Below the pieces are notes generated by a model. The model saw nothing but the letters and a program-made list of their open reading frames with translations, was not told the origin of the DNA and made no database searches. From the human T2T-CHM13v2.0 reference genome, Homo sapiens, in the NCBI RefSeq assembly GCF_009914755.1, contig NC_060925.1: 64,000 nt of DNA. The stretch is one strand, 5' to 3'. Made by a program: the position numbers and the translations under genes. Positions 22,341 to 26,828 of the stretch are shown piece after piece; within the stretch, counting starts at the first letter, position 1, and each line of letters opens with the position of its first letter.

Positions 22341-22546
22341 TTCCTCTTTCTTTCTTGACTTTTATGACTGTTTCCTTGTTCTCTCCGAACTTGTCTGATC
22401 ACTACAGGCTCCTACTATACCAGACTCCATTTCTTCTCTGTTCCATAGCTATCTATTCTTAGCTGCCTTTTTTCTCTATATTTTCTATTTCATTCATAGT
22501 TGTGGTTTTGACTCTCATCTTTATACTAAATTCACAACTCATGTAT

Positions 22547-23840
22547 ATTTTTAAATTTACTTTTATTTCAATAAGTTTGCAGGGAGCAGGTGGTGTTTGG
22601 TTGCATGAATAAGTTCTTTAGTGGTGATTTCTGAGATTTTGGTGCATCCATCACCCGAGCAGTGTACACTGTACGAAATGTGTAGTGTTTTTTTGTTTTG
22701 TTTTGTTTTTGTTTTTTTGAGACGGAGTCTCACTCTGTTGCCAGGCTGGAATGCTGTGGCACGATCTTGGCTCACTGAAACCTCCGACTCCCTGGTTCAA
22801 GCTATTCTCCTGCTTCAGCTTCCTGAGTAGCTGGGATTACAGGCACATGCCACCACGCCCGGCCAATTTTTGTATTTTTAGTAGAGATGGAGTTTCACTA
22901 TGTTGGCCAGGATGGTCTTGATCTCCTGACCTCGTGATCCGCCCACCTTGGCCTCCCAAAGTGCTGGGATGACAGGCATGAGCCACCATGCCCAGCCCCC
23001 AATGTGTAGTCTTTTATCCCTCACCCTCTCCCACCCTTTCCCCCTACTCCCCAAAGTCCAATGTATCATTCTTATGCATTTGTGTCCTCATGGCTTAGCT
23101 CCCACTTATGAGTGAGAACAAATGATGTTTGGTTTTCTATTCCTGAGTTACTTCACTTGGAATAATAGTCTCCAATTCCATCCAGGTTGCTGCAAATGCC
23201 ATTATTTCATTCCTTTTTATGGCTGAGTAGTATTTCATGGTATATATATCCCACATTTTCTTTATCCACTTGTTGATTGATGCGCTTCTGGGGTGATTCC
23301 ATAGTTTTGCAATTGTAAATTGTGCTGCTATAAACATGCAAGTGCAAGTATCTTTTTCATATAATTATTTCTTTTCCTCTGGGTAGATACCTAGTAGTGG
23401 AATTGTTGGATCAAACAGTAGATCTACTTTTAGTTCTTGAAGGAATCTCCACACTGTTTTCCATAGTGGTTGTTTTAGTTTACATTCCCACCAATAGTGT
23501 AAAAGTGTTCCCTTTCACCATATCCATGCCAACATCTATTTCTTTTTATTTTTTGATTATGGCCATTCTTGCAGGAGGGGTAAGGTGGTATTGCATTGTG
23601 GTTTTGATTTGCATTTCCCTGGTAATTAGTGATGTTGAGCATTTTTACATATGCTTGTTGGCCATTTGTATATATTCTTTTGAGAATTGTCTATTCACGT
23701 CCTTTGCCCACTTTTTGATGGGGTTGTTTTTTCTTTCTGATTTGTTAGAATTCTTCATAGATTCTGGGTATTAGTCCTTTGTTGGATGTATAGATTGTGA
23801 AGACTTTGTCTGTTAACTATGCCGATTATTTCTTTTGCTG
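22547..23840 (-). mobile_element. L1PB-type 3' end (3' half of the ERV/L1 chimera)
   Basis: L1PB-type 3'UTR (AAGTTCTTTAGTGGTGATTTCTGAGATTTTGGTGCA); ORF2 C-terminal remnant at 23137-23337. Confidence 0.85.
22692..22998 (-). mobile_element. AluS (Sc-like) nested in L1PB
   Basis: TSD AATGTGTAGT(G/C)TTTT at 22677-22691 and 23001-23015. Confidence 0.92.
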
Positions 23841-25223
23841 AGCCAACTGAATTATACAACCCCTTTTAAAAAAATCCTTTTTACTAACCTTATTATGACT
23901 TACATAGAACATTTACAACATGCTTAGACTTTCTGTTTTGTCCTAAATATCCCTTTTTCTTGAACAACCCATTTTATTGTAGGACAAAAATTTACCAAAC
24001 AGGATTCTTTCTAGTATAAAATGACTTTCCTTTTTACCTTTCTATCAAAAGCACCTCTCTATATTTTTAACCTTTTTACATTTCTTATTTTTTGGTTCCT
24101 TTTATCTTGTTTTATACATAACCCTTAAATAAGCTTTCAGTTAGACAAATACATTTACCTTTTCATAAGAACATTAAAAATTTTTTTCCTATAATTTTTA
24201 ATTGGAAATTACCCAGATACTTAATATTTATTAATAACATTAGATCCTAAATTATATAACATGTTTGTTTACAGGCATTTGTTTATTCTATTACATTTAC
24301 CTGATCGATTGATTTATTAAATAATTTACCTAGATTATTTACAAAAACTGTGATAGTCATTCTTTATTTCCCTGTTAACTATTTTTATAGCTGTGAATTT
24401 TAGGTGTTTACTTAAGTAAGAAACTTAAGGTTAAATATAAGGGTATTTTTACCAATAACTTGGGATTTAGCTGTTTTCATTAAACCAAGAATATTCCATG
24501 TCTTACTTGTCGAAAATTATACAAGCAAAGATCATTTTGTCTTGAGCTGGATTTTATAGTTTTATAACCCTTATGGCTTATAGTATTCTGCCAAAGTAAG
24601 CACAAAACCACTTGATCAAAAATGCTATAGTTTTATAACCCTTATGGCTTATAGAATTCTGCAGGAGTGAGCACAAAACCAGTAGATCAAAAATGCTAAC
24701 AATTTTTAAGACATCTCTAATATTATTTTACCAATAATTTTAAAGCCAGATTATTTTATTAAAAATTTTACTTAAATCACATTAACTTGAAAAAGCATTT
24801 GACTAGTCTTTTCTTTTGATTATCCGATTTAAGTGCTTTTATATTTTAGCCAATTAGCTAGAGCTGTTTTATATATTTTTAGTACTGAAACATTGTGTAC
24901 ACAACACAAATACATAGACATATTTGTGCATGCTAATAGAAATACATCTTATAGATTCATAAGACCTTTTTTCTTTTTTTTTTTTTTTTCCTATCTTAGG
25001 CTTTTAAATTCTTGATAACCTGTTTCACTATTCAGGCAGTTGTCAGCTAAGTGGCCTTAAATTTGCATATTAAAGGAAACAACTCTTAGGGGAAAATCAG
25101 ATAGCAAAATTTACATCTCAAGGTACTGAGAGAGAAAGTCTGGTGTGCTAGAGGGAAGTTAAAACAGATTTAATTGCCAATTAAACAAAAAATTATAGAA
25201 ATTATAAGGACCTTTTAAATACA

Positions 25224-25281
<58 letters not shown>

Positions 25282-26478
25282 GACCCTATAGCTTTTACTT
25301 CAGAACTTTAGCCATGAGATAAATACAAATTCCTTGGGTTGCCAAAAAAAAAAAAAAAAAAAACACCTCTTAGACCCAAACAGTGTTTATCTCAGTGGAA
25401 AAGTAACAGCAGATTTAAAGTAGGAAAAAACGAAAATAGAAAAAAAAGAGAACTTAGGAACTCTGTCGTTTGCAGGTCGATCTTAAGGCTTTTTTTCCTT
25501 AATGTAAATGTGCACAAAGACCATATTACTTCCATTTTACACAAACTCTGGCAAGTAGAGGCACCACAAAACCTAGAGTGCTTGAAGGGAGGCTATTCTC
25601 CTTGTTTTCTCCTCATTCTTAGATTATTTGTTTCCCACACTTTTTATTTTATTTTATTTTAAAGGAGGAATTGAGCTGTGGCCTAGGGCTTTTGTGGAGT
25701 GGATTGAAGTGTTTGCTGCTTGCGAGCAGGACTCTACAGTGAGTCGTTGCCACTGTCTTATGTGTCTCAGTTTTTCTCTCTGGAGATCTAAGCCCCTCCA
25801 GATGGGCTCAAAGTATGGAGTGATCAGCTCCTATATGTGCTTCCTGGACAAGCCTTTTTAAAACTAATTTTGTTGGGGGTTCCCTGTAGGGCTGCCGCAC
25901 CCCAGACACTCCCATGAGGCCCCTGGCCACCCAGGGGTGCTTTTCAGGTGGGAGGAGCAAATACCCTTTCTCTTTGGAGCTGAAGAAACGCAGTCTCTCA
26001 TTTACCTATGAAAACAACAATTCAGTTCCTCACTCAAATGTGCACCAGGCCAAATTGAGATTAATTTTGGGAGAAAAGCAATGGAGAAGACTCTTTGAAT
26101 GCTAGAATTAAATTAGGATCGGAGCTAGAATTAGGATCCTTAAACAGCAACTTCCTAGGAGAAAAAAAAACCAGCTCAGAATAGATCAAGGACCCTCAAC
26201 CAAAGGGAGGTGCGGGCTCAGGAGGACACATGAGCTCCACCAGAGGAGAAGCTCAAAGTCAGGGAGGCTTCAGTGGGCCCCTGCTGGTACCTTAGCACTG
26301 AGTTTGGGCAACTCCTGTGGGGTCCTGAGTCTTCTCTGAGGCCCAACATGTTTGGGTGCCAAAATATTGTTAACAAAAAGTCAAACTGTACAATATTTTG
26401 AAGAGATTTATTCTGAGCCAAATATGAGTGACCATGGCCCATGACACAGCCCTCAGGAGGCCCTGAGAACATATGACC
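23841..26478 (-). mobile_element. MER4-group ERV1: LTR 3' part (26368-26478), PBS and ~2.5 kb internal region
   Basis: LTR end ...GGCTCAGAATAAATCTCTTC...TTGTTAACA; degenerate Lys-like PBS TGGCACCCAAACATGTTGGG (~26342-26361); AT-rich MER4-int-like body. Confidence 0.8.
25221..25278. repeat. (CA)n microsatellite
   Basis: Direct reading; one interruption. Confidence 0.95.
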
Positions 26479-26828
26479 CACAACTCATGTATTTATCTAA
26501 CTTTATATTTTCCTGCTGTTCATCATCCCCATATAGAAGTCCCACTACCAACTCGAACTCAGTATGACCCAAGTTACACGTCTCTCACTAATTTAAAAAA
26601 GTTTTTTTCCCTTTTATTCCTGATCTCATTATCCACTCACTCAGGATAGAAAATTGATTGAGAGCTCTAAGTTTTTCTTTTCACTATATTGGGCATCTGC
26701 CGTTTTTGTCTACTCCATATGATGGTTTCTTCTAGAAAATTATACTTATCTCATTTCATGTCAACCATGGGGTCCTCTCTTCATAGGAATGTGAATGTTA
26801 CCCATACAGAACCAATATGTGTAATATA

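What the first reader, a model, noticed from the sequence alone, without database searches (positions are those of the whole stretch)
22533..26492. Second, ancient LTR-RNA/L1 chimera: MER4 ERV transcript fused to an L1PB 3' end under one TSD
Seen: CACAACTCATGTAT occurs at 22533-22546, next to the decayed L1 A-tail, and at 26479-26492, where the truncated LTR begins, followed by a TTT/AT endonuclease-like site. Between them, on the minus strand, are only the last ~111 nt of a MER4-type LTR, a PBS, ~2.5 kb of internal ERV, an abrupt join (GTTGGCT|CAGCAAAAG, 23841/23840) and ~1 kb of L1PB 3' end. From my recollection of the MER4 LTR, the start (GGTCATATGTTCTCAGG) is ~30 nt after the TATA box, i.e. 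at the U3/R boundary, as expected for an RNA copy rather than a provirus. Inference: a single TPRT event, either a template switch from L1PB RNA to ERV RNA (as in U6/L1 chimeras) or copying of an LTR-driven read-through transcript. Standard annotation would list these as unrelated repeats. With the HERV-H case, that makes two LTR-initiated RNA/L1 composites within 20 kb, of very different ages. This is the best candidate here for something undescribed.
Basis: partly seen in the sequence, partly recalled or inferred. Interest (0 to 1): 0.72.

Follow-up and report, generated by a model that had tools for sequence, protein, structure and literature searches.

The report
LTR-element RNA fused to L1 tail
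An old, inert retrocopy in which the first 2.6 kb of an LTR-retroelement transcript, starting exactly at its promoter's start site, is joined to the last 1 kb of an L1 element and was pasted in as one piece by the L1 machinery; it is a tidy curiosity, not a new mechanism.

Summary
CACAACTCATGTAT occurs exactly twice in the window, at 22533-22546 and 26479-26492. Between the copies, on the minus strand, lie:
- 111 nt of R-U5
- a PBS-like site
- 2.5 kb of LTR-element internal sequence
- a clean join at 23841/23840
- 0.97 kb of an old-type L1 3' end with a decayed A-tail
- a later nested Alu

All 29 genomic relatives continue upstream into U3. In 19 of them an exact TATAAA lies 30 nt before the point where the window copy begins, so the copy starts at the transcription start site.

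The ERV piece is collinear with LTR-flanked 7-8 kb relatives. No other locus carries the join, and neither parent has a splice signal there.

One L1-mediated insertion of a composite template is well supported (about 0.9). Template switch and a read-through transcript from a lost source locus cannot be separated here (roughly 0.47 against 0.40).

The names MER4 and L1PB could not be tested. The claimed HERV-H twin is a different structure. No ERV/L1 chimera class turned up in print. I rate it a new member of a known kind, of modest interest.

The parts
22533..22546 (.). Target-site duplication, copy next to the L1 A-tail (CACAACTCATGTAT)
   Evidence: exact, one of only two copies in the window, 0 of 100 shuffles reach 2.
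22547..22561 (-). Decayed A-rich tail after the L1 terminus (minus strand: ...AAAAGTAAATTTAAAAAT)
   Evidence: L1 relatives L057 and L058 end ...TATTGAAATAAAA followed by A-rich tails at the same point.
22562..22686 (-). L1 3' UTR end, including the AATAAA of ...TTGAAATAAAA
   Evidence: aligned with L057 and L058. There is no match to the 3' UTR of the window's young full-length L1, so it belongs to an older L1 lineage.
22687..23000 (-). Alu, a later nested insertion, with its own 10-nt duplication AATGTGTAGT at 22677-22686 and 23001-23010
   Evidence: sequence and repeat read directly; two sub-threshold 7SL/SRP-like matches at 22717-22863 and 22882-22996 on the minus strand; matches Alus in the relatives' loci.
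23011..23840 (-). L1 ORF2 C-terminal region and 3' UTR, 5'-truncated, starting CAGCAAAAGAAATAATC; carries a 17-nt deletion after AACAGACA
   Evidence: 84-88% identity to the 40 scored of 10,977 candidate L1 copies; 6 L1 relatives; 74.3% over 738 nt to positions 5128-5861 of the window's full-length L1.
23840..23841 (-). Join of ERV piece and L1 piece (GTTGGCT|CAGCAAAAG); no filler, no A-run, no shared bases
   Evidence: of 40 scored matches, only the window itself spans the join.
23841..26339 (-). Internal sequence of an LTR retroelement, 65% A+T, with no detectable coding remnant
   Evidence: collinear end to end with relatives (L043 in a single HSP over 26478-23841; L042 79%, L045 80%); no retroviral Pfam domain; base composition.
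24555..24696 (.). Tandem duplication of a 71-nt unit (90% identical) found only in this copy
   Evidence: both window copies align to a single segment in L041, L042, L044, L046, L047 and L048.
26340..26361 (-). Primer-binding-site-like sequence TGGCACCCAAACATGTTGGGCC, 6 nt after the LTR end
   Evidence: relatives read TGGCGCCCAAAC(A/G)(C/T)GTGGGG at the same place. The matching tRNA was not tested.
26368..26478 (-). R-U5 of the LTR (111 nt) with no U3; AATAAA at 26412-26407; R is about 26478-26392 and U5 about 26391-26368
   Evidence: start is 30 nt after TATAAA in relatives; the R end is placed from A-tailed copies elsewhere in the genome.
26479..26492 (.). Target-site duplication, copy next to the 5' end of the element

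Best explanation
This is one L1-mediated, target-primed reverse transcription event on the minus strand.

**Proposed sequence of steps.**
1. ORF2p nicked the target at about 26492-26494.
2. It primed on the poly(A) of an old-lineage L1 RNA and copied its last 0.97 kb.
3. The cDNA then continued on a second, separate RNA: a transcript of an LTR retroelement begun at that LTR's own start site.
4. It entered this RNA 2,638 nt from the 5' end and ran to the cap. This could be a reverse-transcriptase template switch or an equivalent joining of two RNAs in trans.
5. Second-strand resolution left the 14-nt duplication.

**State of the product.** It has no U3, no promoter and no reading frame, and was dead on arrival. 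An Alu (22687-23000) and a 71-nt tandem duplication came later.

**Shown.** The single duplication, the shared orientation, the exact start-site 5' end, the natural L1 3' end, the clean and unique join, and the absence of splice signals.

**Inferred.** That two separate RNAs were involved rather than one read-through RNA.

**Odds.** I put about 0.9 on the single-event core and about 0.47 on the two-RNA version given here.
For: - **Duplication.** Exact 14-nt repeats lie directly outside the 5' end of the LTR piece and the L1 tail.
- **Start site.** The 5' end falls 30 nt after TATAAA. All 29 relatives carry the TATA region, 19 of them with an exact box at that spacing, and the window has no U3 at all.
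- **Collinearity.** The ERV piece is collinear with LTR-flanked relatives whose LTR pairs are 85.5-91.4% identical and 7-8 kb apart.
- **L1 end.** The L1 piece reaches the natural L1 terminus.
- **Join.** It is exact, with no A-run or filler.
- **No source locus.** Of the 40 matches scored from 76 candidates, 1 is the window itself, 18 match the ERV side only and 21 match the L1 side only. None spans the join. The closest relative, L045, has no sense-oriented L1 there.
- **Published parallels.** The anatomy matches published sense-oriented chimeras with a 5'-truncated L1 (Law & Burns sections read).
Against: - A read-through transcript of a provirus carrying a nested sense-oriented L1 would give exactly the same product. 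Most old proviruses have since been lost or reduced to solo LTRs, so the missing source locus is weak evidence.
- A perfect TTTT|AAAA lies 27 nt upstream of the join in the ERV piece. This is what a nested L1's own, rather long, duplication would need. By chance, 8% of positions have a TTAAAA 7-30 nt upstream.
- From my own recall, ORF2p template jumps studied in vitro go from the end of one template to the end of another, whereas here the acceptor point is internal.
- The endonuclease site is only a fair match to TTTT/AA.
- Each genome search scored only its 40 best candidates.
Confidence: 0.47

Rival explanations
1. **Read-through retrocopy.** An ordinary 5'-truncated L1 of about 1 kb had earlier inserted, in sense orientation, 2.6 kb into a provirus of this family. 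A transcript started at the 5' LTR and was polyadenylated at the L1's own signal. L1 proteins then retroposed this single RNA in trans, like a processed pseudogene. The source provirus has since been lost or reduced to a solo LTR.
For: - It explains the same anatomy and needs only common steps.
- The L1 fragment has the usual size of a dead insertion.
- A perfect TTTT|AAAA sits 27 nt upstream of the join, against an 8% chance expectation for TTAAAA within 7-30 nt.
- RNAs ending at this LTR family's own poly(A) site were retroposed repeatedly, at about 11 loci. One of them has an A27 tail and a duplication of about 17 nt. The family's LTR-containing transcripts were therefore available to L1 in trans.
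Against: - No locus with this join exists in the assembly: of 40 scored matches, only the window spans it.
- The closest relative, L045, is not such a locus.
- A 27-nt duplication is longer than usual.
- L049, the one relative with a sense-oriented L1 fragment near its 5' LTR, is a scrambled locus and not a clean example.
Confidence: 0.4
2. **Splicing or RNA ligation before retroposition.** The ERV RNA and an L1 RNA were joined by cis-splicing, trans-splicing or an RNA ligase, and the fused RNA was then retroposed.
For: - Law & Burns propose splicing and ligation for several mRNA/L1 and U6/L1 chimeras.
- Sense orientation and a clean join fit this route.
Against: - At the join, ERV relatives continue AT(A/G)A rather than GT (9 of 9).
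- L1 relatives read ...CTGCA before CAGC rather than AG (6 of 6). There is therefore no canonical donor or acceptor.
- Nothing marks a ligase substrate.
Confidence: 0.05
3. **Unrelated events.** An ERV fragment and an L1 insertion lie side by side after deletions or rearrangements, and the 14-nt repeat is coincidental.
For: - Old loci are often rearranged. Relatives L045 and L049 are examples.
Against: - The 14/14 repeat sits exactly at both outer ends.
- The 5' end falls exactly at the predicted start site, and the 3' end exactly at the L1 terminus.
- There is no second LTR, no short integrase-type duplication, and no A-tail or duplication for the L1 alone.
Confidence: 0.03

Closest known systems
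Chimeric L1 retrocopies (U6/L1, U3/L1, 5S/L1, Alu/L1, mRNA/L1): Buzdin and colleagues (recalled, not read); Law & Burns 2025/2026 (10.1101/2025.02.02.635956 and PMC13174262; sections and supplement searches read)
   Same: - A foreign RNA copy lies 5' of a 5'-truncated L1 3' end in the same orientation.
- One duplication brackets both parts.
- There is no poly(A) at the join.
- The join is unique in the genome.
   Different: - The partner here is a 2.6-kb piece of an LTR-retroelement transcript running to its cap site, not a small RNA, an Alu or spliced exons.
- The words ERV, HERV and 'endogenous retrovir' do not occur in either version's main text.
- The supplements list only incidental LTR-internal fragments, for example 7SL plus MER41-int plus L1PB1.
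- No row matches this locus at my recalled hg38 position. The offset is recalled, and long supplement files may have been cut when stored.
HERV-W processed pseudogenes (Pavlicek 2002, seen only as cited; Grandi 2016 PMC5016936 and Grandi & Tramontano 2017 PMC5537654, passages read)
   Same: - The 5' end is R-U5 without U3.
- It was made by L1.
- It has a long duplication and an A-tail.
   Different: - The 3' end is an L1 3' end rather than U3-R-poly(A).
- Only the first third of the RNA is present.
- The family is a different and seemingly non-coding LTR element.
- The 2017 review calls HERV-W the sole HERV group mobilised by L1.
5' transduction and promoter capture by L1 (Law & Burns section read)
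   Same: Upstream promoter-initiated sequence is carried in front of L1 sequence within one insertion.
   Different: - Those cases mostly involve near full-length L1s and exon ends at splice donors.
- Here the L1 is a 1-kb tail without reading frames, and the join has no splice signals.

Membership tests
L1-mediated (TPRT) retrocopy | Target-site duplication of about 7-20 nt directly flanking the insert | tested here: met
   A 14-nt exact repeat sits at both outer ends.
L1-mediated (TPRT) retrocopy | Poly(A) or A-rich tail at the 3' end | tested here: met
   The tail is decayed (AAAAGTAAATTTAAAAAT) and follows the natural L1 terminus, as in L057 and L058.
L1-mediated (TPRT) retrocopy | Insertion at a TTTT/AA-like endonuclease site | tested here: inconclusive
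   On the plus strand the site reads CATGTAT/TTATC as it stands. It reads ATTT/AT if the duplication is extended by 2 nt with one mismatch.
Chimeric L1 retrocopy (U6/L1 type) | Foreign 5' part and 5'-truncated L1 3' part in the same orientation, with no poly(A) between, under one duplication | tested here: met
Chimeric L1 retrocopy (U6/L1 type) | No genomic source locus with the same join | tested here: met
   Of 40 scored matches from 76 candidates, only the window spans the join. L045 was checked. This covers one human assembly only.
Chimeric L1 retrocopy (U6/L1 type) | Both parts arrive together in orthologous loci of other species | not testable with these tools
   No other primate genome is held.
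Processed pseudogene of an ERV (HERV-W type) | 5' LTR reduced to R-U5, starting at the transcription start | tested here: met
   The start lies 30 nt after TATAAA, and U3 is absent.
Processed pseudogene of an ERV (HERV-W type) | 3' LTR reduced to U3-R followed by poly(A) | tested here: not met
   The 3' end is an L1 3' end, and no 3' LTR is present.
Integrase-made provirus or solo LTR | Complete LTR(s) from TG to CA including U3, with a 4-6 bp duplication | tested here: not met
   Only the last 111 nt of one LTR are present, and the duplication is 14 nt.
MER4 LTR / MER4-int (Repbase/Dfam names) | Best alignment to those consensus sequences | not testable with these tools
No repeat library is held. 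The family is defined here only by genomic relatives.
Endogenous retrovirus in the strict sense | gag, pol or env remnants between the LTRs | tested here: inconclusive
   None of 101 sense-strand fragments of at least 40 aa from L041, L042 and L048, and none of 13 earlier fragments, hit a retroviral Pfam family. LTR pairs and a PBS are present. Short fragments of old copies are a weak test.
L1PB subfamily | Best alignment to the L1PB 3' end consensus | not testable with these tools
   Shown only: it is not the young L1PA type. Identity to the window's full-length L1 is 74.3%, and the 3' UTR end is not alignable.
Splice-mediated L1 chimera | Join at a splice donor of the partner and/or an acceptor in L1 | tested here: not met
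   ERV relatives continue AT(A/G)A. L1 relatives have ...GCA before the join.

The most novel reading that the evidence does not exclude
LTR-retroelement RNAs other than HERV-W may have been regular substrates of the L1 machinery.
- This one LTR family shows both hallmarks of L1-made copies. Here it has a 5' end exactly at the start of R.
- Elsewhere, about 11 loci have R cut 17-19 nt after AATAAA and followed by A-tails. One of these has a duplication of about 17 nt.
- If this is general, ERV-RNA/L1 chimeras and ERV retrocopies form an uncatalogued class that repeat annotation splits into unrelated pieces.
- Such copies would also serve as natural records of the start sites and poly(A) sites of extinct LTR promoters.
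Probability: 0.3. Interest if true: 0.5.

Novelty: new member of a known kind. Interest (0 to 1): 0.33.

Why it matters
The locus has no sign of function. It lacks a promoter and any reading frame, and it lies about 6 kb upstream of the nearest annotated PRKACB exon.

Its value is as a record:
- **Start site.** It fixes, to within 2 nt, the transcription start site of an extinct LTR promoter. Together with the A-tailed copies found elsewhere, it also fixes that family's poly(A) site.
- **L1 reach.** It shows that L1 handled a long LTR-element RNA from a family other than HERV-W, which a 2017 review calls the only such group.
- **Cataloguing gap.** Chimera catalogues built around small RNAs, Alu elements and genes can miss repeat/repeat composites of this sort.

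A genome-wide count would show whether this is a one-off or a class.

Tried and rejected
- **Coding test, first attempt.** I replaced it with stop-free fragments, and none hit a retroviral domain.
- **Mistaken query.** I used window 6700-12950 as a 'HERV-H' protein query. Searches show that block is a full-length L1. therefore says nothing about retroviral genes, and the 'pol-like' hits in L044 are L1-ORF2-like.
- **L045 as a decayed source locus.** Rejected, because its ERV breaks about 200 nt before the join into an inverted LTR piece.
- **L049 as a model source (LTR, ERV, then sense L1).** Rejected as a scrambled locus.
- **Splicing at the join.** Rejected.
- **Homology near the join.** Four relatives extend 16 nt past the join. 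This is only an A-rich resemblance (CAAAAAGAAATCAT against CAAAAGAAATAATC) offset from the breakpoint, and I gave it no weight.
- **Hidden small RNA at the join.** None found. Rfam reports only the Alu's 7SL-like halves and a sub-threshold mir-1268 match inside the Alu. There are no tRNAs.
- **Pavlicek 2002.** Not held.
- **Systematic count of R-start copies of this family.** Not feasible, since each search scores only 40 candidates.
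Full report
**1. 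What is there**

CACAACTCATGTAT occurs at 22533-22546 and 26479-26492 and nowhere else in the window, even with one mismatch. None of 100 shuffles gave two matches. Read on the minus strand, the 3,932 nt between the copies are as follows:
- 26478-26368: an LTR fragment of 111 nt. It starts GGTCATATGTTCTCAGG, has AATAAA at 26412-26407 and ends ...AACA.
- 26367-26362: six bases.
- 26361-26340: a PBS-like TGGCACCCAAACATGTTGGGCC.
- To 23841: A+T-rich sequence (65% A+T).
- 23840-23011 and 22686-22547: L1 sequence.
- 22687-23000: an Alu that interrupts the L1. It has its own 10-nt duplication AATGTGTAGT and shows 7SL-like sub-threshold Rfam matches.

**2. The 5' end is a transcription start**

The window's genome could be searched. 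The first 279 nt of the element have many relatives: 40 were scored of 1,853 candidates, at 79-88% identity. I aligned the 29 that were fetched, together with their upstream flanks.
- All 29 continue upstream into homologous LTR sequence containing ...AAAATGTATAAAACCAAGCTG.ACCCCGACCACCTT|GGGCACATG.
- The window's upstream flank is unrelated.
- In 19 of 29 an exact TATAAA begins exactly 30 nt before the base aligned to 26478. The other 10 have point-mutated boxes.
- The last one or two bases of the duplication (TG) could also match some relatives, so the start is uncertain by at most 2 nt.
- A random 5' truncation would fall this close to the predicted start roughly 5 times in 3,000 (my estimate).

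The piece is therefore R-U5 of an RNA, not a truncated provirus.

**3. The internal piece**

Window 26478-23841 is collinear over its whole length with relatives. L043 aligns in a single HSP of 2,724 columns at 72%. L042 aligns at about 79% and L045 at about 80%.

Both copies of the 71-nt tandem repeat at 24555-24696 align to one segment of the relatives, so the duplication is peculiar to this copy.

L041, L042 and L048 have LTR pairs of 592-768 nt, 85.5-91.4% identical and 7-8 kb apart. The family is therefore made of LTR-flanked elements, and the window holds only the first 2,638 nt of the RNA.

I could not show retroviral genes. None of 13 fragments and none of 101 fragments (sense strand, at least 40 aa, from three LTR-flanked relatives) hit a retroviral Pfam family. 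The only hits were three unrelated sub-threshold ones.

My earlier comparison used a stretch that turned out to be L1 and does not count.

**4. The L1 piece and the join**

The 541 nt next to the join match L1 copies at 84-88% (40 scored of 10,977 candidates).
- Six L1 relatives read ...AAGCTTCTGCACAGCAAAAGAAATAATCAGCAGAG... across the point where the window reads ...CAGTTGGCT|CAGCAAAAGAAATAATCGGCATAG.
- Nine ERV relatives share ...CAGTTGGCT and continue AT(A/G)ATTAAAA....

The break is therefore exactly 23841/23840. There is no filler, no A-run, no shared bases, and neither GT after the ERV side nor AG before the L1 side.

The L1 piece runs to the natural terminus ...TATTGAAATAAAA plus an A-rich tail, as in L057 and L058. 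It is only 74.3% identical to the window's young full-length L1, and its 3' UTR end does not align to it, so it comes from an older lineage.

**5. One event**

One duplication brackets both parts. They share orientation. The outer ends are a cap site and an L1 tail. The inner join is clean. I consider independent insertions plus a chance repeat very unlikely (0.03).

**6. Which route**

A 121-nt probe across the join gave 40 scored matches from 76 candidates. One was the window itself, 18 matched the ERV side only and 21 matched the L1 side only. None spanned the join. The closest relative, L045, breaks about 200 nt earlier into an inverted LTR piece.

This fits a template switch, or another joining of two RNAs in trans. 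It does not exclude a read-through transcript from a provirus with a nested L1 that was later lost.

In favour of read-through, a perfect TTTT|AAAA lies 27 nt upstream of the join, against an 8% chance expectation. The family's LTR-terminated RNAs were also retroposed elsewhere (section 7). I put 0.47 on joining in trans and 0.40 on read-through.

**7. Side result**

The motif CTCAGAATAAATCTCTT, followed by 8-30 nt and then A12, finds 2 loci exactly (reversed control 0). With up to 2 mismatches it gives 80 raw matches against 3 for the control, which is about 11 distinct loci of this kind plus 3 that look unrelated.

The four loci fetched read partial U3, TATAAAA, R, AATAAA, 17-19 nt and then an A-tail of 16-31. 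One has a flanking repeat of about 17 nt that begins AAAA.
- These place the end of R at about 26392 in the window copy.
- All four are 5'-truncated inside U3.
- Four of the 11 loci share one sequence variant, so they could derive from host transcripts that merely end in such an LTR.

**8. The 'HERV-H case'**

- A His-type PBS is at 13334-13351 on the minus strand (one mismatch to a recalled motif). Only about 32 nt of U5 lie before it.
- A 12-nt repeat GAAAAACAAATC seems to bracket this piece together with an A-tail at 6687-6722.
- The 6.1-kb L1 inside it has its own 9-nt repeat ACAATTCTT (read by eye).
- It looks like a 5'-truncated retrocopy with a later nested L1, not a start-site-initiated chimera.

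**9. In print**

- L1 chimeras with small RNAs, Alu elements and mRNAs are well described. In Law & Burns (preprint and Cell Genomics version) the words ERV, HERV and 'endogenous retrovir' are absent from the main text.
- Their supplements hold only incidental LTR-internal fragments.
- None sits at my recalled hg38 position for this locus. The offset is recalled, and the stored files may be cut.
- Reviews describe L1-made R-U5...U3-R-poly(A) copies for HERV-W and call that group unique in this respect.
- Five further full-text searches gave no ERV/L1 fusion of this type.
- Pavlicek 2002 and the Buzdin papers were not readable here.

**10. Verdict**

The composite is real and well defined. It is a new member of the known class of L1 chimeric retrocopies, inert and of modest interest. 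Family names, age and the choice between the two routes remain open.

Noticed in passing
window 6753-12879: A full-length young L1 lies on the minus strand. Its 5' UTR start is near 12856 and a T30 run is at 6799-6828. It is flanked by a 9-nt direct repeat ACAATTCTT (6790-6798 and 12858-12866), so it looks like an ordinary nested insertion.
   Followed up: partly
window about 6675-6722 and 12867-13384, minus strand: A HERV-H-like retrocopy. It has a His-type PBS at 13334-13351 with only about 32 nt of LTR U5 before it, an A-tail (T-run 6687-6722 on the plus strand), and an apparent 12-nt duplication GAAAAACAAATC at both ends. If real, it is an L1-made copy of a non-W HERV transcript. It is not start-site-initiated.
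   Followed up: partly
G000 loci C2:20043547, C2:58626957, C2:137818341, C4:89790640, C4:102327607, C9:26162370, C14:19314922, C15:68509066, C5:51774414, C5:101774202, C8:63043861 (L060-L063 fetched): At about 11 loci the R region of this LTR family, or of a close subfamily, stops 17-19 nt after AATAAA and runs into an A-tail of 11-31. L063 also has a flanking repeat of about 17 nt. These are L1-made retrocopies of RNAs that ended at this LTR's poly(A) site. The source RNA (ERV or host transcript) is unresolved.
   Followed up: partly
window 24555-24696: A tandem duplication of a 71-nt unit (90% identical) is present only in this copy of the element. Relatives carry one unit.
   Followed up: yes
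relatives listed: Many of the best-matching copies of this LTR family lie on contig C23: 13 of the 40 matches. One pair is on C23 and C24 at 88% and 87% identity, probably one locus in a duplicated segment.
   Followed up: no
L041, L042, L048 (7-8 kb LTR-flanked relatives): No gag, pol or env remnant was detectable in 101 sense-strand fragments. The family may be a non-coding (non-autonomous) LTR element, or it may be too decayed for this test.
   Followed up: partly
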